Assembly (NCBI GenBank): GCA_963824385.1
Contig: CAWGPD010000001.1
Coordinates: forward strand, 96,001 to 160,000
Direction: 5' to 3'
Source of the DNA: an uncultured Nitrososphaerota archaeon
Lineage (GTDB): Archaea > Thermoproteota > Nitrososphaeria > Nitrososphaerales > Nitrosopumilaceae
DNA length: 64,000 bases
The notes beneath the pieces are model-generated. The model was not told the DNA's origin and made no database searches. It was given only the letters and a program-made list of their open reading frames with translations. Shown piece by piece: positions 8,520 through 21,225 of the stretch (the first letter of the stretch is position 1; each line of letters starts with the position of its first letter). The position numbers were made by a program, and so were the translations under genes.

Positions 8520-10556
8520 ATGATTAGTAGTCTTGTTTTATTTCAAATTCTAATTGTGCTATTCATAGTAGGAGCACTATCTGGGTTATTATCACGAAAT
8601 AGCAGACTTACACGACATCTGACATTTGTCCCTGCCATGATTGGTTCGATTTTTACCATCATATTTTCAATCGAGATCATAACTGGCGCACCACTAAAGT
8701 TGGCCGTATCAAACATACTTCCTTTCTTCAATCTTGAGATCTTGGTGGATGGAGTATCTGCATTTTTCATGTTAATAATTGGATTAGCATCATTTGCGGT
8801 TTCATTATACTCTATCGGATATTCAAAGGAGTATGAAACTAAAAAAAGAATATCTGCTTTTGGATTTCTATTTAATATTTTTATTTTATCAATGATTCTC
8901 GTCGTGTCATCAAACAACGCATTTTTCTTTTTGATATTCTGGGAATTAATGTCGCTTGTTTCATTTTTCTTGGTAATCTATGATCACGACAAGGAAGAAA
9001 ATCTAAAATCAGGAATTACATATCTTGTCATGACACATTTTGGAACTGCTCTTATTTTTGTATCATTTCTACTTGGATATATTCAGACAGGCAGTTTTAG
9101 TTTTGATTCACTGCGTGAATCTTCTGCTTCATTTCCGTTATTAGTAAAAAATCTCGTATTTGCTTTTGCGTTTGTTGGATTTGGAGTAAAAGCAGGAATT
9201 GTTCCATTACATACTTGGCTGCCCCATGCACATCCATCTGCTCCAAGCAATGTTTCTGCATTAATGTCTGCAGTTATGATAAAAATGGGAATCTATGGTA
9301 TAGTTAGAACAGTTTTTGATTTTTCCGGCTTTGGTGCCTCCCCAGACTTTGCATGGTGGGGCGTACTCATGATTGCCGTAGGTTCCATATCTGCAGTAAC
9401 CGGTGTGCTATATGCCGTAATTGAGCGGGACATAAAGCGAGCCCTTGCTTATTCCAGCATAGAAAACATAGGAATAATCCTAATCGGATTGGGGCTCTCT
9501 GTAGTCTTTTCCGCATATCACCTCATAGCACTCTCAGTCTTGGCATTTATTGCAAGCATGTATCACACCATAAACCATGCAGTCTTCAAGGGATTGCTTT
9601 TCATGGGCGCGGGCTCTGTCGTATACGCCACCCATACTAGAAACATCGAAGATCTTGGTGGAATAATCAAGCAAATGCCATGGACTTCGTTGTTATTTCT
9701 AATTGGAGCTGTCTCAATTGTTGGATTGCCACCATTCAATGGTTTTGTAAGCGAATGGTTAACACTGCAATCTTTTCTTTCAAGTTATCAGATACCATCT
9801 ACAATACTGCAAATATCAATCGCATTTGCAAGCTTGCCCTTTGCACTCACAATAGGGATTGCATCTGCAACATTTGTCAGATTGTTTGGAATAACATTTC
9901 TTTCAAGAGCACGAAGTAAACATGCTCTTAACATCAAAGAAGTTCCACGCAGTATGATTGTAGGAATGGCAGTGTTGGCAGCTGTTTGTATCTTACTTGG
10001 AATACTTGCATCCTTAGGAATTTCGTTGGTAAGTTCTGCATTCCATTTACCATCACAACCTTCCAGTCCATTGGACAGTATAACATTACACAACAATGTA
10101 AATCCAGTACATCTCTCCATGCCATTTATTCTGATTTTGTTTTCAGCTATTACAGTGGGCGCTTTTGGTTTTATTCGAACAATTGGTGGAAAAACCAGCA
10201 AGACAATCTATGGAACATGGGATTGCGGATTTGGAAATCTAAATGAAAAAATGGAATACACTGCAACATCATTGTCTCAACCAATACGTGCAGTCTTCAA
10301 AGTTTTTTTCAAGCCACACAATATAACCAGTAAGGAATTTTTTGTATCGACAAATCAATACTTGATAAAATCCATCAAATTCAGTTCCATAACAAAAAAT
10401 ATCTTCGAAGAAAGCCTATACCAACCAATAATATCTTCAACCCTTAGAGTCTTGGACAAGATTCGGAAAATCCAGACAGGAAAGATAAACGCATACTTGC
10501 TATACATAATGATAACCGCAGTCTTACTTCTCTTGTTTGTGAGGTTGAGCCATTGA
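8520..10556 (+). CDS. hyfB: Hydrogenase-4 component B-like antiporter subunit (NuoL/MrpA family)
   Basis: Polytopic; FWELMS, KAGIVPLHTWLPHAHPSAP, LAYSSIENIG, TWDCGF motifs. Confidence 0.9.
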   Translation: MISSLVLFQILIVLFIVGALSGLLSRNSRLTRHLTFVPAMIGSIFTIIFSIEIITGAPLKLAVSNILPFFNLEILVDGVSAFFMLIIGLASFAVSLYSIGYSKEYETKKRISAFGFLFNIFILSMILVVSSNNAFFFLIFWELMSLVSFFLVIYDHDKEENLKSGITYLVMTHFGTALIFVSFLLGYIQTGSFSFDSLRESSASFPLLVKNLVFAFAFVGFGVKAGIVPLHTWLPHAHPSAPSNVSALMSAVMIKMGIYGIVRTVFDFSGFGASPDFAWWGVLMIAVGSISAVTGVLYAVIERDIKRALAYSSIENIGIILIGLGLSVVFSAYHLIALSVLAFIASMYHTINHAVFKGLLFMGAGSVVYATHTRNIEDLGGIIKQMPWTSLLFLIGAVSIVGLPPFNGFVSEWLTLQSFLSSYQIPSTILQISIAFASLPFALTIGIASATFVRLFGITFLSRARSKHALNIKEVPRSMIVGMAVLAAVCILLGILASLGISLVSSAFHLPSQPSSPLDSITLHNNVNPVHLSMPFILILFSAITVGAFGFIRTIGGKTSKTIYGTWDCGFGNLNEKMEYTATSLSQPIRAVFKVFFKPHNITSKEFFVSTNQYLIKSIKFSSITKNIFEESLYQPIISSTLRVLDKIRKIQTGKINAYLLYIMITAVLLLLFVRLSH

Positions 10557-11497
10557 TGCCTAACCTTGCAGATATTGTAATTGGCATAGTCCAGACTCTT
10601 TTCATCATAGCATTTGCGCCTTTGATGGTTGGAATAATGAACAAAACCAAGGCAAGAACCCAGAAAAGAATCGGCTCAAGTGTATTTCAGCCTTATTATG
10701 ACATCATAAAACTTGTCCACAAAGATGAGGTAGTAACAGACCAGAGTTCGTGGATTTTCAGATCATCACCGTGGATTAACTTTGTAGCTATAGGTACTGC
10801 CGCATTTTTTATTCCCATATTTATTTCATATTCACCATTTGGATTGGTAGGTGACATACTGCTAGTCATTGGCCTGTTTGCTCTTGCCAGATTTTTTACA
10901 ATGTTGGCAGGCCTTGATGTATCTAGTTCCTTTGGTGGATTTGGAGTAAGCAGAGACATGATGATGTCTATGCTTTTGGAACCTGCATTGTTTCTTACAA
11001 TATTTGTTACATCTCTCACATATGGAGGATCAAACATCAGTGGAATAGTAACCGCATCTGCTAATTCCTCATTGGTTTTGCATCCACAACTAATCTTTGC
11101 GCTGATTGCAATGTTTGTTATAACATTAGGTGAAACGGGTAGATTGCCATTTGGTAATTCTTCAACACACCTTGAACTTACCATGATTCATGAGGCAATG
11201 ATTCTAGAATATTCAGGCAAGAGCCTAGCACTGGCAGAATGGTCATCAGCAATAAAGCAACTCATACTGTTATCATTAATTATCAACATCTTTGTTCCAT
11301 TTGGAATATCTACAACAGTATCAGCGCCATTACTAACAACAGGACTGTTATTGTTTGTCGTAAAAGTTTCATTACTTGCTACATCTATTGCATTTCTAGA
11401 ATCAAGAGTTGCAAGGTGGCGTCTTTTTAGATTACCAGATTTGATTGCAATGGCAATTGCAAGTTCCATGATTGGAGTGGTCTTTTTCTATCTCTAG
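10553..11497 (+). CDS. hyfC: HyfC/NuoH-family membrane subunit
   Basis: QPYYDIIKL, ETGRLPF, ELTMIHEAMILEYSG. Confidence 0.9.
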   Translation: MMPNLADIVIGIVQTLFIIAFAPLMVGIMNKTKARTQKRIGSSVFQPYYDIIKLVHKDEVVTDQSSWIFRSSPWINFVAIGTAAFFIPIFISYSPFGLVGDILLVIGLFALARFFTMLAGLDVSSSFGGFGVSRDMMMSMLLEPALFLTIFVTSLTYGGSNISGIVTASANSSLVLHPQLIFALIAMFVITLGETGRLPFGNSSTHLELTMIHEAMILEYSGKSLALAEWSSAIKQLILLSLIINIFVPFGISTTVSAPLLTTGLLLFVVKVSLLATSIAFLESRVARWRLFRLPDLIAMAIASSMIGVVFFYL

Positions 11498-12166
11498 TTG
11501 ATGATTATGGACACAAATCAAATCATGATGTTTTCTGGTGCAATTCTTCTCATTGCTACCTTTGGTATTGTCACAAGGCGTGGATTTGCAGACTGGCTTG
11601 GCGCATATCGATATCAATCAATTGTTCTTGCAGCAATCACTGCACTAATTGCATATGTTACAGGAATTTGGGAGATCTATGTTGCTGCAGGTCTTACCTT
11701 TGTAATAAAATCAATAATAATTCCCAAAGTCTTGCTGTACGTAACAAGAAATCTTGAGATAGAATTCAAGGTAGAGACAAATCCATACGTAAGTCTTAGG
11801 GCGTCAGTAATAATTTCCGCGTTTCTTGTTGCATTGTCATATTTTCTAACACAGCAAATACCGTTCAAGTCAGATCCGATAGTAAGCACTTACTTGCCAA
11901 TATCTATCGCATTATTTCTCATAGGTCTTTTTGTTATCGTAAACAGGAGATCTGCACTCAATCAGGTAGTAGGCCTTTTGATTATAGAAAACGGACTCTT
12001 TCTTTTCACCCTGACATTGACACATGGCGTATCACTCATCATCGAGATGGGCATTTTTGCAGACATATTGGTTGGAATCATAATTTCATCCATACTGCTG
12101 CTCAGGATTAGTCGCACCTTTGATAGCCTAGATGTTGGAAAACTGCAAAACTTGAGGGATGATTAG
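11498..12166 (+). CDS. hyfE: HyfE membrane subunit
   Basis: Hydrophobic, QVVGLLIIENG motif, operon position. Confidence 0.88.
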   Translation: MMIMDTNQIMMFSGAILLIATFGIVTRRGFADWLGAYRYQSIVLAAITALIAYVTGIWEIYVAAGLTFVIKSIIIPKVLLYVTRNLEIEFKVETNPYVSLRASVIISAFLVALSYFLTQQIPFKSDPIVSTYLPISIALFLIGLFVIVNRRSALNQVVGLLIIENGLFLFTLTLTHGVSLIIEMGIFADILVGIIISSILLLRISRTFDSLDVGKLQNLRDD

Positions 12167-13672
12167 ATGGAGTTGACAGATATTTTCAGCGGATCAAACG
12201 GTACTATACTTGCACTACTCTTCACTCCAGTCATCGGAGCAATTCTTGTTACTGTAACAAGACAAAAAAGAATATCGGAGATTGTAACAGTGGCTTCCGC
12301 ATTTTTGATTCTGATACAGGTATTTTTTATTGTATCAAGAATCATTAGCGAAAAAACAATCACGGCATTTGGCAATACATTTTACATCGATTCATTTGGA
12401 GCAATAATACTTTTACCAATATCTATTGTCGGTCTAGTTTCTGCGATGTATTCTGTAAATTACATGGGAAGACAGTATGACAATGGGATGATAGACATGA
12501 AACATGTTACAAGATACTATCAAGGCCTCAATGTTTTTCTGCTGACCATGCTTATTGTTCCAATTTCAAACAACATGGGAATAATGTGGGTCACAGTTGA
12601 AGCTACCACACTTGTCTCTGTTCTTTTGATAATGCTGTATTTCAAACAAAATGCCATTGAGTCTGCATGGAAGTATCTGATAATTGCAACAGTCGGATTA
12701 TCTTTTGCCTTGATAGGTACAACATTTTTTTATTACGCAAATATCAATGTGGAAAATTCAGCAGATGCAATGAACTGGACTTCGATGATGCATAATTCAA
12801 AACTCTTTGATCCTAATTTGGTTAAGATTGCATTTGTTTTCATACTGATTGGTTTTGGGACAAAGGCAGGTCTTGCCCCAATGCACACGTGGCTCCCAGA
12901 CGCACATAGTGAGGCGCCTACACCAGTTAGTGCATTATTGTCAGGAGTTCTCCTCAATTGTGCTTTTTACTGCATAGTACGTTTTCATATAATCAGCAGC
13001 AGTACCATAGGCCCTGCATTTTCAAGCCAACTTTTGATAATACTTGCCGTAATATCTGTAGGAATAGCAGCTGCATCCATCTACTTCCAAAAAGACATGA
13101 AGCGAATGCTTGCCTTTTCCAGTGTAGAACACATGGGTGTAATATCCCTAGGAATTGGTTTTGGGGGCTTACTTGGCGTCTATGGCGCTCTGCTTCAGAT
13201 AATCAATCACGCAATAGTAAAGCCAATGATGTTTTTTGCAAGTGGAACAATCACCCAGAAATACGAGACAAAAGCAATTTCAAAAATAACTGGAGTGATC
13301 AAGGTGATGCCAGCTACAGGTGTTTTGTTTTTGATTGGAGGGCTTGCCTTGGTAGGAATGCCACCATTCAATATTTTCTTGAGTGAGTTTTTGATACTCG
13401 GTGCTGGTCTAAAGTCAGGACAATTTCTTGCCACATCACTTGTAATAATTTTCCTTGTCATCACATTTGCAGTATTTCTCAGACATGTAATCAGGATGGT
13501 TTTTGGAAATCCATCTCCCGAAATAAAAAATGGTTCAATGGGAAGACTTGCAATAATTCCAGTTGTAATTCTTGGCTCACTTGTATTCATACTTGGAGTA
13601 TACATTCCACAACAGTTACAAACACTTGTACACAATGCATCAGCCATAATTAATCTAGGAGGAGTCACATGA
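12167..13672 (+). CDS. hyfF: HyfF antiporter-like subunit
   Basis: WVTVEATTL, ESAWKY, GFGTKAGLAPMHTWLPDAHSEAP. Confidence 0.9.
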   Translation: MELTDIFSGSNGTILALLFTPVIGAILVTVTRQKRISEIVTVASAFLILIQVFFIVSRIISEKTITAFGNTFYIDSFGAIILLPISIVGLVSAMYSVNYMGRQYDNGMIDMKHVTRYYQGLNVFLLTMLIVPISNNMGIMWVTVEATTLVSVLLIMLYFKQNAIESAWKYLIIATVGLSFALIGTTFFYYANINVENSADAMNWTSMMHNSKLFDPNLVKIAFVFILIGFGTKAGLAPMHTWLPDAHSEAPTPVSALLSGVLLNCAFYCIVRFHIISSSTIGPAFSSQLLIILAVISVGIAAASIYFQKDMKRMLAFSSVEHMGVISLGIGFGGLLGVYGALLQIINHAIVKPMMFFASGTITQKYETKAISKITGVIKVMPATGVLFLIGGLALVGMPPFNIFLSEFLILGAGLKSGQFLATSLVIIFLVITFAVFLRHVIRMVFGNPSPEIKNGSMGRLAIIPVVILGSLVFILGVYIPQQLQTLVHNASAIINLGGVT

Positions 13673-15294
13673 ATAAAATTTTGTTAGAAAAATATAAAAA
13701 AGACATTCTAGGAAAATTTGAAAATAAGATAGACAAGACATTAGAAAACCATAATGAATTGCATCTCTTCTTGAGAAATGATCAAGACATACCTGAAATT
13801 TGTAATTATATCTACATTGAATTGGGCACACGTCTTGCCACAATGATATGTACCGATGAAAGAAAATTAGGAAATGGTTTTGTAATTCGTCATGTCTTTG
13901 GAAAAGATAACGGCGAAGATGTGTTTATTTTTGTCACTTCAAAGATAGATGAATCCATTTTATCATATCCAAGTATTACCACAACAATTCCTGCTGCAAC
14001 TCTTCATGAACGTGAGATACATGACATGTTTGGAATCATTCCAATCAATAATCCTGATGCCAGACCCCTTGTTTTACATGATCACTGGGACAGAACCATA
14101 TTTCCTCTGAGAAAGGACTTTGGCCTAAACACGAATATCCCAAGACAAAAAGAGGAATACCCATTTCTCAAGGTACACGGAGAAGGAATCTGCGAAATAC
14201 CTGTAGGGCCTGTTCATGCTGGAATCATAGAGCCGGGTCATTTTCGATTTAGTGTAATGGGTGAGAACATAATCAATCTGGAAACACGCCTATTTTACAC
14301 CCACAAGGGAATCGAAAAACTTGCCGAGTCTATGAAAATAGACGATGTTCTGCTTTTAACTGAGCGCATAGCAGGTGATGAATCAGTTGCAAATTCTACT
14401 GCCTTTTGTCAATCAATAGAAAAAATTGCCAACGTTACAATCCCAAGGAGAGCACAGCAGATAAGAACAATCTTTGGAGAATTGGAAAGACTTTACAATC
14501 ACATGGGTTCACTGGCAGGAATTTCAGCAGATGTTGGTTTTCCATTTGGTTCAGCAAGACTCAACATACTCAAAGAGAGATTGATGAAACTAAATGAATT
14601 ACTTAGTGGAAGTAGAATTCTTTTCGGTGTAAACAGAATTGGAGGAGTAAGATGCGATATTACAGATGAAAGTAAACAAACAATTACAGAATCCACAGAA
14701 TCCATTTTATCTGACTTTGAAAATGTTGTAACACTTCTCAAATCAAAATCATCTTTTATTGACAGACTAAAAGATACTGGAATGATATCAAAACAATTTG
14801 CACATGATCTTGGACTGGTCGGAGTTGCTGCAAGATGTATCGGAATAGATGTAGATACAAGACGCGATCACCCCTACTCTGCATATTTACTGCATAGAAA
14901 AGAAACCCCGCAAGAAGTAATGCAACGAGAGATATCAATGCAAAAAAGAAATGGGGATGTTTTGACAAGATTTGAAGTCAGAGTGCAAGAGGTACGAGAA
15001 TCAGTTGATATCATAGGAGCATCTCTTGATTTAGAAAATGATAATTTGTATGTCAATATACAGCAAAATCTAGAACCATTCAGATCCGCTCTTGGGTATG
15101 TAGAATCACACAGGGGACAAACAGTTCACTGGGTTATGACAGGTGAGAAGAATTCCATATTCAGATACAAGATAAGAACGGCCTCATTTTTCAACTGGCC
15201 AATAATTGAGCAGGCTGTGTTAAACGATATTGTTCCTGATTTTCCTCTAGTCAACAAAAGTCTAGACTTGTCATATTCGGGGAATGACCTATGA
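13669..15294 (+). CDS. hyfG: HyfG/NuoCD-like large subunit lacking NiFe-binding cysteines (Ehr type)
   Basis: GPVHAGIIEPGHFRF and ELERLYNH motifs. The L1 site reads ERIAGDES and the C-terminus reads SLDLSYSGNDL, with no CxxC pairs. Confidence 0.88.
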   Translation: MNKILLEKYKKDILGKFENKIDKTLENHNELHLFLRNDQDIPEICNYIYIELGTRLATMICTDERKLGNGFVIRHVFGKDNGEDVFIFVTSKIDESILSYPSITTTIPAATLHEREIHDMFGIIPINNPDARPLVLHDHWDRTIFPLRKDFGLNTNIPRQKEEYPFLKVHGEGICEIPVGPVHAGIIEPGHFRFSVMGENIINLETRLFYTHKGIEKLAESMKIDDVLLLTERIAGDESVANSTAFCQSIEKIANVTIPRRAQQIRTIFGELERLYNHMGSLAGISADVGFPFGSARLNILKERLMKLNELLSGSRILFGVNRIGGVRCDITDESKQTITESTESILSDFENVVTLLKSKSSFIDRLKDTGMISKQFAHDLGLVGVAARCIGIDVDTRRDHPYSAYLLHRKETPQEVMQREISMQKRNGDVLTRFEVRVQEVRESVDIIGASLDLENDNLYVNIQQNLEPFRSALGYVESHRGQTVHWVMTGEKNSIFRYKIRTASFFNWPIIEQAVLNDIVPDFPLVNKSLDLSYSGNDL

Positions 15295-16095
15295 AGAAAA
15301 AATCAGATAAGGAAATACTTGGAAATGGCATTGAAACAGTTAGGCATATTGACGAACAGTTCATTTCATCAAATTATAGGGGTAGTATTTCATTTAATGC
15401 CGAGTCTTTCAAAGGAAATGAAGAATCCATTTTAGATTCATGCCCCACAAGAGCATTATCTGCCACCAAGGATAATCAACATGCAATAATCGCAGTAGAC
15501 CATGGCAAGTGTATAATGTGTGGACATTGTAATCAGGTAGCACCAGAATTTATTACGATTAAAAATAAACCTGCGGCACCTACTAAAATCAAAAAACAGT
15601 TATCAGAATATTCTAATTCTCAGGTTCAATCTGAAAAATCATTTGAGGAGATTGGAAAGGAACTCAGAGAAAAAATAAAAAAAATGTTTGGACGTTCACT
15701 GGCCATACGTGAAATTGATGCAGGCTCATGCAATGGCTGTGAAATAGAAATCACTGCTCTGAATAATCCAACATATGACATTGAAAGATTTGGAATTCAT
15801 TTTGTTGCATCACCAAGACATGCAGATGTCTTGCTTGTTACAGGGCCAGCTTCAAAAAATATGGAACTTGCTCTACGCAGAACATATGAAGCAACACCTA
15901 GCCCCAAAATCGTAATTGCAGTTGGTGCATGTGGATGTAGTGGAGGAATATTCGGCGATACATATGCAACAACAGGGGGCATTGACAAGATAATTCCTGT
16001 CGATGTGTACATTCCCGGATGTCCTCCAAGACCAGAAGTGTTGATTCAAGGATTGTTGTTAGTCTGTTGATAGGATGACTGTAAATGGGGAGTAA
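15291..16095 (+). CDS. hyfI: HyfI/NuoB-like Fe-S small subunit with an N-terminal ferredoxin-like domain; frameshift near 16063
   Basis: GSCNGCEIE, SPRHAD, GACG, PGCPPRP; N-terminal CP...CxxCxxC. Removing one base extends the ORF to TAA at 16095. Confidence 0.85.
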
Positions 16096-16412
16096 GGAGA
16101 TTTACTGTTCAACATGTAAGAAAAATCTAGGCAAGTATAATGAGAAATATTTTTCTGATGAAAAATTAAATTCAATTATTGCTACCAATCATACTCAGTG
16201 CATACGCGAAGGTCATAATGTGGTAATTTTAAGACCATAGGGAGTACAAGGTAGTTTTAATGAAAGCGAACAACTGTGATGACCCTTTAAAGTGGGTTTT
16301 CCACCAGAATTCCACAAATCATGCCTAAGCGTGCCTATTTGATCAATAAGATATTAAGACTTTTAGACAAAATGCTTATTAATAATTTTAGAGGGAAAAT
16401 CATTAGATAAGT

Positions 16413-16475
16413 ATGAAAAAAGTAGATTCGACAAGCATTTCAAGTATTTTGTTGCTAGTCGAGGTTATGCTGTAA
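16413..16475 (+). promoter_or_regulatory. Putative Ile/Leu/Val-rich leader peptide (attenuator) of the ilvB operon
   Basis: ORF MKKVDSTSISSILLLVEVML (9 of 20 residues branched-chain) ends 29 nt before the ilvB ATG and overlaps alternative hairpins. Confidence 0.6.
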
Positions 16476-16504
16476 AATACAGCAATTTTCGGAGATAGAA
16501 AATT

Positions 16505-18194
16505 ATGGAAAAAATTTCAGGTGCAAGGTCTTTGATGATCGCTTTGGAAAAAGAGGGCGTCGATATTGCCTTCGGACTACCGGGAGGTGCAAACTTGCCA
16601 ATATACGACGAACTTTACAAAAGCAACATACGACATATTCTAGTAAGACATGAACAGTCTGCGTCACACATGGCAGATGGATATGGCAGAGTAAGTAGAA
16701 GACCAGGAGTATGTTTTGCAACATCAGGTCCAGGTGCAACGAACATTGTTACAGGAATTGCAACAGCTCAGGCAGACTCCTCTCCAATGGTTGCAATCAC
16801 AGGTCAAGTTCCTTCAAAAATGATTGGTCGTGACGCATTTCAAGAAAGTGACATCATAGGAATTACAAACCCCATTGTAAAATATGCATTTCAGCCAATG
16901 ACTCCTGGAGAAATTCCAGAAGTAGTAAAGAAGGCATTCTATATCGCATCAACTGGAAGACCTGGTCCTGTTTTAATAGACATCCCAAAAGATGTGCAAC
17001 AAAACGAAGCAGAGATTCAATTCCCTTCCGAAGTTAAAATTAGAGGATATCATCCATGGGTAGATCCTGACATAAGAGAAATTGAAAGGGCAACTGAGAT
17101 GTTACTATCTGCAGAAAGACCAATTATTCTTGCAGGTGGAGGAGTCATAATTTCAAGTGCATTTGCAGAACTTCAATCAATTGCAGAATTACTCATGATA
17201 CCGGTTGTAACAACTTTCAAAGGAAAGGGTTCATTTCCAGAAAATCATCCACTTTCACTTGGACCAATTGGAATGCACGGTCATGCAGAAGCAAATAAGA
17301 TGATGACAGAAGCTGACTGTGTGCTAGCTTGTGGTTCCAGATTTTCAGACAGGTCAGTTGGTACATTTGAAGAATTTGAGAGAAATTTGAAGATAATACA
17401 CATGGATGTAGATCCTGCAGAGATTGGAAAGAATCAGACTACAAACGTAGCAGTTGTTGGAGATGTAAAGACATCACTTAGAATCATGGTAAAGATGCTA
17501 ATTCAAAAGGCTATCAAACGAAATGGAGAAAGCGCATGGGCAAAAAGAGTTAAAGAAACTAAAGAATACTATAGAGAAAACATCAAGATTCACCCACATC
17601 CATTAGCAGCCTCCAAAGTTCTCAAAAAGTTAAGAGAGGTTCTTCCTGGTCAGTCTATTGTTACTACCGAAGTAGGTCAACATCAGATGTGGGCATCATT
17701 ATTCTTTGATGTCATACACCCAGGGACATTTTTTAGCTCTACAGGTCTTGGGACGATGGGGTGGGGATTCCCAGCAGCAATAGGTGCAAAAGCTGCAAGA
17801 CCAGATGTTCCAGTTTTAGACATTGCAGGAGAAGGAAGTTTTAACATGACAGAAAATTCACTTGCAGTATCAGTATTAGATGATCTTCCAGTAATTGTAT
17901 TCTTACTAAATAATTTCTCACTTGGTATGGTAGCCCAATGGCAGAGAACATTTTATGATAGAAGAATGATAGGAATCGACCTTAAGAATTGTCCAGATTA
18001 TGTCAAAGTAGCAGAAGCATACGGTGCACAAGGAATCAGAGTCGACTACAATTGACGAGATTGGAAAAGCAGTCCAGACAGCATTAAAGAGTAACATTAC
18101 AACTGTCATAGACATACCAATTGATCCACTAGAAGACGTATTACCATTTGTAGCACCTGGAACATCTCTCAAGGACATGATCTTACCATCATAG
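16505..18194 (+). CDS. ilvB: Acetolactate synthase large subunit, frameshift near 18047
   Basis: FGLPGG, VRHEQ, TSGPGATN, VGQHQMW, GEGSFNM. The shifted frame continues to VLPFVAPG and a stop at 18194. Confidence 0.95.
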
Positions 18195-18203
18195 TGAAAT
18201 AAC

Positions 18204-18695
18204 ATGTGGTCAATTATTTCCGTTCTAGTAGAAAACAAGCCAGGTGTCTTGTTCAAGATTACAAACTTGTTTAGATCAAGAAACTATAACATTGACAGCA
18301 TATCAGTAGGGATAACTGAAAATCCCGAAGTCTCTAGAATGACAATTACTACAGAAGCAGATGAAAAACAGCTAAATCAAATAATAAAACAACTAGACAA
18401 ATTGATTGATACAATAGAAGTAAAACTATTAGATGAGAAGAAGAGCATATACCGAGAACTTGTCATGATGAAGATCAAAGTAACAAAACCAACTGACATC
18501 AAAGAGATAACAGACCTTGCAAACGCCTTCAAGTGTGACGTTCATGATGTAAGAAAGTCTTCCATCATATTAGAGATAACTGCAACGCCAGATAGAATTA
18601 ATGCCCTTGAAGACCTTGTCAGAGGATATGGAATACTTGAAATGGCAAGAACTGGAATATGTGCATTAGCAAGAGGAGAAAGAAATGAAGGTTAG
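18204..18695 (+). CDS. ilvH: Acetolactate synthase small regulatory subunit
   Basis: ACT domain ENKPGVL...YNIDSISVG; EMARTG. Confidence 0.93.
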   Translation: MWSIISVLVENKPGVLFKITNLFRSRNYNIDSISVGITENPEVSRMTITTEADEKQLNQIIKQLDKLIDTIEVKLLDEKKSIYRELVMMKIKVTKPTDIKEITDLANAFKCDVHDVRKSSIILEITATPDRINALEDLVRGYGILEMARTGICALARGERNEG

Positions 18696-20208
18696 AATTT
18701 TTGATACCACATTAAGAGATGGAGAGCAGACACCGGGCATAGCCTTGACTCCAGATCAAAAACTTACCATAGCACAAAAATTAGATGATCTAGGTGTTGA
18801 TGCAATAGAAGCAGGTTTTCCAATTGTTTCAGAAGGAGAGATGACAGCAATTAGATCAATAACAGGCGCAGGATTGAAAGCAGAGATTTGCGGACTAGCG
18901 CGAACAGAGAAAAAAGACATTGATGTAGCTGTAGCAGTTGGGTTAAAGTACATCCACACATTCATTGCAACTTCAGACATACATCTCAAGTACAAGCTAA
19001 AATTAACTAGAGAGCAAGCATTAGAAAAAGCAGTTGAAGCAGTCCAGTATGCCAAGTCACTTGGATTACAAGTTGAATTCTCTGCAGAAGATGCTACAAG
19101 GACTGATAGAGAATTTCTAAAAAAAGTATTCAAAGCAGTAACAGAAGCAGGCGCAGACAGATTAGACATTCCAGATACGGTGGGATATTCCACTCCACAA
19201 TATATTGCCGAAATTACAAGAGATACAATTGATGCAACACATCTACCAGTAAGTGTTCACTGTCACAATGATTTTGGTCTAGCTGTTGCAAATGCATTGT
19301 CTGCGATACAAGCTGGTGCAAAATGTGCACATGTTACAATCAATGGAATAGGAGAAAGAGCAGGTAATGCGTCTTTAGAAGAACTAGTAATGGGATTACA
19401 ATGCCTCCAATGGGATAAGGACAGAAAATTTGAGACAAATATTAACACCAAACTTCTTTACGAGACTTCACGATTCATCTCAAAGATAGTAGGAGTACAG
19501 GTTCAGCCAAACAAGGCAATTGTGGGAGAAAATGCATTTGGTCATGAATCTGGAATTCATACACATGGAGTATTGAGCAATCCGTTAACCTACGAACCAA
19601 TCAGTCCTGAACTTGTGGGTAGAACAAGATGGTTCCAAGTAGGAAAACACGCAGGAGCACATGGAGTTTCTGCCATGCTTGAAGAATATGGAATCCAACC
19701 TTCAAAAGAGCAGACGCATGAAATTTTAGAGAAGATCAAAAAGCTTGGAGACCTAGGAAAACATGTAACAGATGTTGAGCTTTTAGGAATTGCCGGAGAG
19801 GTAATGCAACAACAGGGATTAAAGAGACTAGTCCACCTCGTAGGTTTTTCAGTATCAACGGGAATTGGAAATATGCCATATGCATTTGTAAAGTTAAACA
19901 TTGAAGGAAAGGACTTTATCAGTACAGATTACGGGGTAGGCCCAGTAGATGCGTCAATAAACGCAATACAGAAAATTACTGGGGAAATATCCAAAGTCAG
20001 GGTAAAAGATTACAAGTGAGATTCAATCTCGGGAGGTTCAGAGGCATTATGTGAAGTTACCATCAAAGTTGAAGACGCATATGGAAACCAAGCCTCTGCA
20101 AAATCAGTAGGAGAAGATATTGTAATTACAAGTGTACAAGCAGTAATAGATGGCATAAATAGAATAATGCTTAAAAAAATTCTTAAACAAAAAAACTTGG
20201 GACAGTAA
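18685..20208 (+). CDS. leuA: 2-isopropylmalate / citramalate synthase; in-frame TGA at 20017-20019
   Basis: DTTLRDGEQ, HCHNDFG, GIGERAGNA, HESGIH. The same frame resumes after TGA (DSISGGSEALCEV) to TAA at 20208. Confidence 0.88.
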
Positions 20209-21225
20209 ATGTACAAAATATCACTTATCACCGGAGACGGAATAGGTCCAGAATTATCAGAATCAGTTATCGAAGTATTGAATGCAGTAAATGACAAATT
20301 TGGAGTAAAGTTAGATATTACAAAATTACAAGCAGGTGATACAGCACTCAAAAAAACAGGAAAGGCACTTCCAGATGAAACATTAGATGCAATAAAAAAG
20401 TCTGATGCATGTCTCAAGGCACCTGTTGGTGAAAGCGCCGCAGATGTGATTGTGGTATTGCGAAGAATGTTAGACCTTTATGCAAACATCAGACCTGCCA
20501 AGTCTTATCCAAACATGCCAGCATTAAAGCAAAACATAGACATGATAATAGTAAGAGAAAATACGGAGGACCTATACACAGGTATGGAATTTGACCTTGG
20601 AGAGACATCTGTTGCATTACGTACAATCTCAAAGAGAGCATCAGAGAGAATTGCAAAATATGCATTCATGACAGCAGAGCAGCGAAATGGAAAGAAAAAG
20701 GTAACATGTGTACACAAATCAAATGTGATGAAAAAGACAGACGGTTTGTTTTCAAGGTCATGCCAGGAAGTGGCAAATAACTATCCTAAAATTTCATTTG
20801 AGCAGATGTATGTAGATGCATGTGCCATGAATCTAATAAGACAGCCAGAGGATTTTGACGTTATAGTAACTACCAATTTGTTTGGGGACATTTTATCAGA
20901 TGAGGCATCACAGGTTGTAGGAGGATTGGGAATGGCACCGGCAGCAAACATTGGAGACAAATTTGCATTATTTGAGCCAGTTCATGGCGCAGCATTTGAC
21001 ATAGCAGGAAAACAAGTTGCAAATCCATCCTCGTTTATTTTATCTGCAAAGATGATGTTTGAGTGGCTTGGAATGAAAAATAATGACAAGGCATGTTATG
21101 ATATAGCAAAAAAGATAGAAGATGCAGTATATGGAATTGTCAAAGAAGGAATCAAGACAAAAGATATTGGCGGTAACAAGAGCACTGTGGAATTTACACA
21201 GAGTGTAATATCAAAAATTACTTGA
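20209..21225 (+). CDS. leuB: 3-isopropylmalate dehydrogenase
   Basis: GDGIGPE, RENTE, NLFGDILSD, EPVHGAAFDIAG; operon context. Confidence 0.88.
   Translation: MYKISLITGDGIGPELSESVIEVLNAVNDKFGVKLDITKLQAGDTALKKTGKALPDETLDAIKKSDACLKAPVGESAADVIVVLRRMLDLYANIRPAKSYPNMPALKQNIDMIIVRENTEDLYTGMEFDLGETSVALRTISKRASERIAKYAFMTAEQRNGKKKVTCVHKSNVMKKTDGLFSRSCQEVANNYPKISFEQMYVDACAMNLIRQPEDFDVIVTTNLFGDILSDEASQVVGGLGMAPAANIGDKFALFEPVHGAAFDIAGKQVANPSSFILSAKMMFEWLGMKNNDKACYDIAKKIEDAVYGIVKEGIKTKDIGGNKSTVEFTQSVISKIT

What the first reader, a model, noticed from the sequence alone, without database searches (positions are those of the whole stretch)
16378..16507. Bacterial-style attenuator leader peptide in front of an archaeal ilvB-ilvH-leuA-leuB operon
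Seen: a 20-codon ORF (16413-16475, MKKVDSTSISSILLLVEVML) with 8 of its last 12 codons Ile/Leu/Val, about 30 nt after a TATA-like ATTAATAA. Alternative pairings exist. GTATTTT (16444-16450) can pair with AAAATAC (16474-16480), covering the ILLLV codons. This competes with a perfect TGCTGTA-AAA-TACAGCA hairpin (16468-16484) followed by TTTT. AATTTTC/GAAAATT (16484-16504) encloses GGAGA just before the ilvB ATG. Known: bacterial ilv/leu leaders sense charged tRNA by ribosome stalling; this is poorly documented in archaea. Inference: translation-coupled control of branched-chain amino acid synthesis.
Basis: partly seen in the sequence, partly recalled or inferred. Interest (0 to 1): 0.8.

Follow-up and report, generated by a model that had tools for sequence, protein, structure and literature searches.

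The report
Archaeal branched-chain amino acid leader peptide
A tiny gene ending in a run of leucine, valine and isoleucine codons, followed at once by an RNA hairpin, sits in front of the enzymes that make these amino acids in this ammonia-oxidising archaeon and many relatives, and most likely lets ribosomes gauge their supply, a control familiar from bacteria.

Summary
The uORF (16413-16475) is real and conserved. All 75 distinct Nitrosotalea-like ilvB leaders keep an ATG-started frame; 72 are exactly 20 codons, with interchanging stops and Leu/Val/Ile swaps. Across the class, 37 of 62 ilvB leaders carry a uORF with at least 7 ILV in the last 10 codons, against 13 of 892 upstream regions genome-wide and 68 of 6200 shuffles.

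The conserved layout is TATA box, near-leaderless uORF, ILV codons at the very end, a hairpin anchored on the stop, then the ilvB SD.

Best reading: a charged-tRNA sensor (about 0.85) in which a stalled ribosome covers the hairpin and blocks premature, probably FttA-dependent, termination (about 0.45, inferred). No expression data were obtained. I found no archaeal case in print (10 searches). This scan has reported the same element before on other DNA (e1-6511978, e1-6514456, e1-2257499).

The parts
16376..16383 (+). TATA-box-like element of the leader promoter
   Evidence: TTAT(T/A)AA lies 36-37 nt before the uORF ATG in 61 of 75 relatives; conserved columns in alignment A1. The start site near 16405-16406 is inferred from usual archaeal spacing (recalled), which gives a 5' UTR of about 7-8 nt without an SD.
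16413..16475 (+). 20-codon leader uORF with TAA stop
   Evidence: ATG in 72 of 72 twenty-codon copies; stop TAA 48, TAG 23, TGA 1; 72 of 75 exactly 20 codons while the stop-to-ilvB spacer varies 29-36 nt.
16446..16472 (+). Control codons 12-20 (I L L L V E V M L)
   Evidence: Synonymous Leu changes and Leu/Val/Ile/Met swaps; summed entropy by codon position 4.9, 1.4, 3.2 bits. In 36 lineage representatives (chosen for at least 6 of 10 ILV), ILV share is 0.92-0.94 at positions -2, -3, -5 and falls to 0.33 at -10.
16428..16462 (+).
   Evidence: RNAalifold consensus; 98.2% of cells paired, one-sided G-U changes only, no two-sided change. Weak outside the family: median z -0.7, 4 of 26 below -2.
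16468..16484 (+). Hairpin B anchored on the uORF stop codon
   Evidence: Pair probability about 0.96; stem of at least 5 bp in 69 of 75 relatives; 91.9% of cells paired, one pair with two-sided change. Class-wide, core stems start -7 to +6 nt from the stop (SD 3.0 nt, against 8.1 nt relative to the ilvB start) in the 27 of 43 hairpins at or below -8 kcal.
16486..16489 (+). U4 tract after hairpin B (kept in part of the genus only)
   Evidence: T-run of at least 4 in 40 of 75 Nitrosotalea-like leaders; 4 of 43 class-wide.
16491..16495 (+). Shine-Dalgarno-like site of ilvB
   Evidence: GGAG or (G/A)GTGA 6-11 nt before the ATG in 75 of 75 leaders. The enclosing 16484-16504 hairpin is not conserved (61-76% of cells paired).
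16505..18194 (+). ilvB, acetolactate synthase large subunit (frame broken near 18045 in this assembly)
   Evidence: TIGR00118 682 bits, over cut-off. ORF ends at 18055; one extra base against 5 of 5 relatives compared.
18204..18695 (+). ilvH/ilvN, acetolactate synthase small subunit
   Evidence: NF008864 and TIGR00119 over cut-off.
18685..20019 (+). LeuA-family synthase (isopropylmalate/citramalate type); in-frame TGA at 20017, frame reads on towards leuB
   Evidence: NF002085 and TIGR02090 over cut-off, match ends at 449 of 504; sequence. Not compared with relatives.
20209..21225 (+). LeuB-family dehydrogenase
   Evidence: TIGR02088 416.5 bits, cut-off 409.8.

Best explanation
A cis-acting leader peptide that reports charged tRNA-Leu/Val/Ile to the ilvB-ilvH-leuA-leuB operon. 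A near-leaderless transcript starts about 7 nt before the uORF and a ribosome loads at once. With amino acids plentiful, the ribosome runs through the terminal ILV codons, terminates and leaves; the stop-anchored hairpin forms behind RNA polymerase and the now untranslated spacer is open to premature termination before ilvB, most likely by FttA/aCPSF1. When they are scarce, the ribosome stalls on the last ILV codons, sits on the hairpin's 5' arm, and the polymerase reads through. The stalled ribosome itself acts as antiterminator, so no alternative helix is needed. Shown here (sequence comparison only): the uORF, its coding signature, the ILV bias, the stop-anchored hairpin, the SD, and an aCPSF1 gene in the genome. 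Inferred: transcription start, translation, stalling, the sign of the hairpin's effect and the role of FttA. Confidence about 0.85 for 'ILV-sensing uORF' and about 0.45 for this output step.
For: Coding signature in 72-75 leaders. 37 of 62 class loci against 13 of 892 genes and 68 of 6200 shuffles; at least one positive locus in 13 of 18 families of the order and 5 of 7 families of other orders, with unrelated peptide sequences. The bias is to I/L/V rather than to hydrophobicity: F/A/M/W/Y/C make up 16 of 98 other residues against 45% in 555 membrane-like windows. The hairpin is tied to the stop, has G-U pairs in 21 of 27 and loops of 3-13 nt. Masking 9 nt beyond the A site (27-nt footprint, 12 nt to the P site, PMC7261190 passages) removes a median 68% of hairpin energy for a stall on the last codon and 42% on the second last. 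No consistent change in SD access class-wide, which points away from a pure translational switch. An aCPSF1 gene is present, split by a frameshift in this assembly. FttA and the ribosome are hypothesised to exclude each other (PMC11616081 passages).
Against: No transcript or ribosome evidence was obtained for the leader. FttA prefers U-rich RNA (PMC8716108 abstract), yet U is not enriched after the hairpin class-wide (T 171, A 189). The best-kept ILV positions include -3 and -5, where a stall removes little hairpin energy (16% and 2%), and the last codon is ILV in only 67%. A terminating ribosome melts the hairpin even more (77%), so the model rests on dwell time alone. 14 of 62 class loci score 4 or less, among them 2 of 4 loci-level misses by shuffle test in f9 and 3 of 4 loci of f15. 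13 of 20 genera of the family carry a second TATA-like element 30-37 nt before ilvB that could bypass the leader. In the Nitrosotalea-like set a stall eases SD opening by over 1 kcal in 37 of 75 and never hinders it, which favours the translational rival there. Kin are not independent, so the counts overstate significance.
Confidence: 0.45

Rival explanations
1. Same sensor, translational output: ribosome position on the uORF sets access to the ilvB SD or start region, as for mycobacterial leaderless polycysteine sORFs; any termination is secondary polarity.
For: SD kept in 75 of 75 leaders. Extended stems reach into the SD in several lineages, e.g. L182, L186, L187. In the Nitrosotalea-like set a stall lowers SD opening cost by over 1 kcal in 37 of 75, median 0.98. 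Precedent: 10.1101/834739 passages.
Against: Class-wide the effect has no sign: easier in 9, harder in 12, unchanged in 22 of 43. The hairpin is fixed to the stop, not to the ilvB start (SD 3.0 against 8.1 nt). In this window the SD hairpin forms with or without the ribosome.
Confidence: 0.2
2. Classical bacterial attenuator: competing antiterminator and intrinsic terminator helices.
For: Two helices in tandem (A and B) with a U4 behind them in this genus. Archaea do terminate at U tracts (PMC8116511 passage).
Against: The alternative helix is -1.7 kcal with probability near 0 and does not beat shuffles. No U tract class-wide. The terminator scan did not call hairpin B. A ribosome at the stop would block the supposed terminator.
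Confidence: 0.1
3. Same sensor, mRNA-stability output: a stalled ribosome or the hairpin shields the operon mRNA from 5'-to-3' decay.
For: Fits a hairpin with no U tract and no SD effect. FttA has 5'-to-3' exonuclease activity (PMC11616081 passage). Ribosome shielding of mRNA in bacteria is recalled, not checked here.
Against: Does not explain why the hairpin must start within about 6 nt of the stop. Not testable with these tools.
Confidence: 0.1
4. The uORF encodes a small hydrophobic or membrane peptide that acts in trans, and the ILV bias is unrelated to sensing.
For: Many peptides have a hydrophobic C-terminus (best-window hydropathy 0.9-3.0); the peptide is well kept within the family.
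Against: Sequence and length (14-40 aa) are unrelated between families. Other hydrophobic residues are depleted and an Asp/Glu interrupts the run at -4 in 9 of 36. The position before ilvB and against a hairpin is fixed.
Confidence: 0.07
5. The inverted repeats are a DNA operator for a transcription factor (e.g. Lrp/AsnC type), or a chance feature, and the ORF is incidental.
For: 20 AsnC/Lrp-domain matches in this genome. NUN codons are common in AT-rich DNA.
Against: G-U pairs in 21 of 27 stems, loops of 3-13 nt and no shared sequence. Stop-codon interchange and frame keeping. Null rates about 1-1.5%.
Confidence: 0.05

Closest known systems
Actinobacterial ilvB leader-peptide attenuators: Corynebacterium ilvBNC / ilvB-II motif (PMC10272879, abstract) and Mycobacterium tuberculosis ilvB1 leader (PMC13236596, passages)
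   Same: BCAA-rich uORF in front of ilvB-ilvN. The Corynebacterium peptide forms without a ribosome-binding site (title of a cited paper).
   Different: They use terminator and antiterminator helices with a U tract; a ribosome at the stop favours the terminator. Here there is no conserved antiterminator or U tract, the control codons are terminal, and the hairpin overlaps the stop.
E. coli ivbL, ilvL and leuL attenuators (recalled; general scheme in 10.1101/834739 passages)
   Same: Cognate codons in a short leader before the branched-chain operon; tandem helices in this genus.
   Different: SD-led leader and intrinsic terminator downstream of the stop. No Rfam family matched this region at its gathering score (4 weak hits, best E 0.14).
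Mycobacterial leaderless polycysteine sORFs, e.g. Ms5788A (10.1101/834739, passages)
   Same: Leaderless uORF, cognate codons at its 3' end, ribosome occupancy itself blocks a helix, no terminator pair.
   Different: There the control codons pair with the downstream SD. Here SD access does not change consistently; different amino acids and domain of life.
Factor-dependent attenuation gated by ribosome occupancy, e.g. E. coli tnaC with Rho (recalled); archaeal FttA/aCPSF1 termination (PMC11616081 passages; PMC8716108 abstract)
   Same: A stalled ribosome near the stop denies a termination factor access to nascent RNA.
   Different: tnaC senses free tryptophan through the nascent peptide. A regulatory use of FttA by a uORF was not found in the papers seen.

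Membership tests
Classical ribosome-mediated transcription attenuator | Short uORF upstream of a biosynthetic operon | tested here: met
Classical ribosome-mediated transcription attenuator | uORF enriched in codons for the operon's end products | tested here: met
   37 of 62 loci against 13 of 892 and 68 of 6200; specific to I/L/V
Classical ribosome-mediated transcription attenuator | Conserved antiterminator that excludes the terminator | tested here: not met
Classical ribosome-mediated transcription attenuator | Intrinsic terminator: GC-rich hairpin followed by a U tract | tested here: not met
   Hairpin present, but U4 follows in 4 of 43 class-wide and 40 of 75 in the genus-level set; not called by the terminator scan
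Classical ribosome-mediated transcription attenuator | Terminator free to form while the ribosome is at the stop codon | tested here: not met
   With the stop in the A site, at least half of the hairpin energy is lost in 37 of 43 (modelled mask)
Classical ribosome-mediated transcription attenuator | uORF is translated and a short terminated transcript responds to amino acid supply | not testable with these tools
   Only contigs of four metatranscriptomes were available, and they cannot show starts, ends or levels
Leaderless-sORF translational attenuator (Ms5788A type) | Leaderless or near-leaderless uORF | tested here: inconclusive
   TATA-like box 36-37 nt before the ATG in 61 of 75 implies a 5' UTR of about 7-8 nt; start site not mapped
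Leaderless-sORF translational attenuator (Ms5788A type) | Control codons pair with the downstream SD and are freed by stalling | tested here: inconclusive
   No consistent sign in 43 class-wide leaders; about 1 kcal easing in 37 of 75 genus-level leaders
FttA/aCPSF1-dependent terminator | Factor encoded in the genome | tested here: met
   TIGR03675 in two adjacent pieces, C2:122147-124034
FttA/aCPSF1-dependent terminator | U-rich RNA upstream of a mapped 3' end | tested here: inconclusive
   U4 present here and in 40 of 75, not class-wide; no 3' end mapped
Any Rfam cis-regulatory family | Covariance-model match at gathering score | tested here: not met
   4 hits in 16000-16700, all far below gathering

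The most novel reading that the evidence does not exclude
Archaea have their own widespread form of ribosome-mediated attenuation, in which a ribosome stalled on terminal cognate codons is itself the antiterminator and gates FttA/aCPSF1, the homologue of the eukaryotic CPSF73 3'-end nuclease. [quoted passage not shown] The same genome may run a second, different translational sensor on trpE.
Probability: 0.35. Interest if true: 0.9.

Novelty: new variant of a known kind. Interest (0 to 1): 0.74.

Why it matters
Leader-peptide attenuation is a textbook bacterial control. In 10 library searches I found no description for archaea; the library lacks most subscription papers, so older proposals may exist. 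Whether coupling of transcription and translation has regulatory use in archaea, and whether ribosome and FttA exclude each other, is posed as an open hypothesis (PMC11616081). This 130-nt element gives a direct test: dozens of natural variants, defined control codons and a defined hairpin, including in Ca. Nitrosotalea devanaterra (L065). It also bears on how ammonia-oxidising archaea economise amino acid synthesis, and these uORFs are too short for routine annotation.

Tried and rejected
RNA evidence: 8 runs listed, all contigs. Four rhizosphere metatranscriptomes of one study laid on L065 covered parts of ilvB only, none of the leader; contigs show presence, not absence, so this says nothing either way.

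Rfam: nothing at gathering score. The sigma-70 promoter and terminator scan is not suited to archaea and found no site in the leader. PF11718 rang in no control genome and was uninformative; TIGR03675 was used instead. My first helix-A coordinates were off register and were replaced by the RNAalifold helix.

The first null (4 of 894) allowed ATG starts only; the like-for-like null is 13 of 892. Gene calls in both are crude longest-ORF calls on an error-prone assembly.

Rows dropped before counts: 5 of 108 genus-level loci had too little upstream DNA. Three loci with at least 6 ILV were left out of the 43-leader set: L167 (frame lies in sequence that looks like the upstream gene), L184 (stop only 16 nt before ilvB), L134 (10 codons, GTG start). 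Families f10 and f18 were not fetched (no close ilvB match).

No ILV leader was seen before ilvC, ilvD or the two leuC-like genes of this genome. Outside the class, 1 of 20 loci reached 7 of 10 (L152), and several of these ilvB genes look operon-internal. The peptide was not scanned against protein families. No supplementary files were read; Ribo-seq or start-site tables in supplements of archaeal papers may bear on novelty.

Full report
Setting. The region lies in a 434-nt gap between a hydrogenase/NuoB-like gene and ilvB. The closest named ilvB relatives are Nitrosotalea and other Nitrosopumilaceae. The operon is ilvB, ilvH, a LeuA-family and a LeuB-family gene. The assembly is error-prone: ilvB has one extra base against 5 of 5 relatives compared, and ilvC and aCPSF1 are split.

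Observation. All stated coordinates are right. Rfam has no match at gathering score.

Conservation in close relatives. Of 108 loci with at least 86% N-terminal ilvB identity, 5 were too short and 103 gave 75 distinct leaders. All 75 have an ATG-started frame ending 29-36 nt before ilvB, and 72 are exactly 20 codons. The other three are a 3-nt deletion (L104), a rearranged 5' end with a new in-frame ATG (L007) and a TTG start with an upstream ATG (L121). Among the 72, the ATG is invariant and the stop is TAA 48, TAG 23, TGA 1 times. Codons 12-20 vary at first and third positions (4.9 and 3.2 bits) far more than at the second (1.4), through synonymous Leu changes and Leu/Val/Ile/Met swaps. Helix A constrains some of these codons, so this signal is partly confounded with structure. 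A TATA-like box sits 36-37 nt before the ATG in 61 of 75, implying a 5' UTR of about 7-8 nt (inference). An SD-like word precedes ilvB in 75 of 75, so ilvB is probably read from a leadered mRNA.

Reach. One detector (best uORF of 10-45 codons ending 12-110 nt before ilvB; ILV count in the last 10 codons) was run on 82 loci picked about one to five per family or one per genus. In the class, 37 of 62 reach 7 or more and 43 reach 6 or more. The same detector gives 13 of 892 upstream regions of this genome, this one included, and 68 of 6200 shuffles. At least one positive locus occurs in 13 of 18 families of the order, in 12 of 20 other genera of the family, and in 5 of 7 families of other orders. 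Peptides of different families share no sequence. Misses: all 3 loci of f9 score 5 or less, 3 of 4 of f15 score 4 or less, 4 of 5 of f54 score 5 or less, and 4 genera of the family score 4 or less. Outside the class only 1 of 20 loci reaches 7 (L152; its relative L151 scores 6). Kin are not independent, so these are descriptive counts.

Is it sensing or just hydrophobic? In 36 lineage representatives, chosen for at least 6 of 10 ILV, only 16 of the 98 remaining residues are F/A/M/W/Y/C, against 45% in 555 membrane-like windows and 28% in 1527 equally ILV-rich windows of this proteome. ILV share peaks at positions -2, -3 and -5 from the stop (0.92-0.94), is 0.67 at -1 and 0.33 at -10. The control codons therefore crowd against the stop.

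Structure. In 31 aligned relatives, helix A has 98.2% of cells paired with one-sided G-U changes only, helix B 91.9% with one two-sided pair, and helix C 61-76%. Covariation is thin because the sequences are close. Stronger evidence comes from distant lineages: in 43 positive leaders the stop region folds at median z -2.1, with 23 below -2, against -0.1 for 14 ILV-poor loci in a comparable window. For the 27 hairpins at or below -8 kcal, the core stem starts -7 to +6 nt from the stop (SD 3.0 nt) but 40-73 nt from the ilvB start (SD 8.1 nt); 21 have G-U pairs and loops run 3-13 nt. This is RNA structure tied to the stop codon rather than a DNA palindrome. Marine-type genera of the family have weaker hairpins (6 of 17 family leaders below z -2). 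U4 follows the hairpin in 4 of 43, A4 in 10.

Mechanism. A classical terminator must form while the ribosome is at the stop. Here a modelled ribosome at the stop removes at least half of the hairpin energy in 37 of 43 leaders; a stall on the last codon does so in 30, on the second last in 14, on the third last in 6 (mask of 9 nt beyond the A site, from the Haloferax footprint in PMC7261190). The simplest logic of the right sign is dwell time: a fed ribosome leaves and the hairpin forms (OFF); a starved one stays and blocks it (ON). SD access shows no consistent change class-wide (9 easier, 12 harder, 22 unchanged), though it eases by about 1 kcal in half of the genus-level set. I therefore favour premature termination. 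FttA/aCPSF1 is the likely effector: it is encoded here, Thaumarchaeota orthologues function as terminators (PMC8716108 abstract; PMC13675443 passage), and exclusion by the ribosome is hypothesised (PMC11616081). Against this: no class-wide U enrichment, weak hairpin loss for stalls at -3 and -5, and no expression data. A second TATA-like word 30-37 nt before ilvB in 13 of 20 genera, including all 4 without the uORF, may be a bypass promoter there; it is not evident in this window's clade, where those bases vary.

Comparison with what is known. It works like bacterial ilvB leaders (PMC10272879 abstract; PMC13236596 passages) and shares its leaderless, occupancy-based layout with mycobacterial polycysteine sORFs (10.1101/834739 passages). 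It fails three defining tests of the classical attenuator family, so it is not filed as a member. Ten searches found no archaeal case. The phrase search for archaeal attenuators or leader peptides returned 0 papers. A review of archaeal coupling has no occurrence of 'attenuation', 'leader peptide' or 'uORF' (PMC8116511), a uORF review none of 'archaea' (PMC11550727), and a termination review none of 'attenuation' (PMC13675443). Haloferax Ribo-seq reports uORFs without this function in the passages seen. PMC7531240, PMC13158618 and PMC1854888 were seen as passages only and added no archaeal case. Most subscription literature and all supplements were out of reach.

Earlier notes of this scan. 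Unchecked AI notes describe the same ILV-plus-hairpin layout in other archaea, including an ammonia oxidiser and a Methanomassiliicoccales genome, and aromatic counterparts. My reading was fixed before that call. They are not independent support; I confirmed the layout for this class but did not test other phyla.

Verdict. New variant of a known kind; interest 0.74.

Noticed in passing
G000:C1 about 84190 (L197), and L199-L202; outside the window: An ATG 4 nt before the trpE GTG opens an overlapping 10-codon frame (MGGHIWAFKP) with a Trp codon at position 6, behind a TATA-like word, in 5 of 6 loci examined (L198 was not matched by the script). Overlap with TrpE confounds its conservation. It may be a second kind of translational sensor.
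   Followed up: partly
L168, L169 (similar DNA in L162), upstream of ilvB, other classes of the phylum: Short frames starting MGGYTLQV share the MGG start of the trpE frame but carry Leu and Val; L154, L156, L157, L160 and L163 share a related (A/G)TGAGGGAT word. Resembles the 'specifier codon' leaders of e1-5716100 and e1-5104793.
   Followed up: no
L131-L150, 30-37 nt before ilvB: A second TATA-like word in 13 of 20 genera of the family, including all 4 that lack the ILV uORF, often inside a short inverted repeat; possibly an internal promoter that replaced the leader.
   Followed up: partly
window about 18045 and 20017; G000 C4:232413-233350, C2:122147-124034: Frame break in ilvB, in-frame TGA in the LeuA-family gene, split ilvC and aCPSF1: probably assembly errors, since core genes are hit.
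   Followed up: partly
L197-L202, about 75-95 nt before trpE: A nearly invariant 20-nt block with short direct repeats of GTACC-like words in 5 of 5 printed loci; possible transcription-factor site.
   Followed up: no
window 8520-16070: Six-gene membrane-bound hydrogenase/complex-I-like cluster (NuoC/D- and NuoB-like subunits) directly upstream of the leader.
   Followed up: no
L007: The 5' half of the leader is replaced by unrelated DNA, yet the ILV-rich end stays in frame behind new ATGs.
   Followed up: no
G000, four contigs: 20 AsnC/Lrp-domain matches in a 1.7-Mb genome.
   Followed up: no
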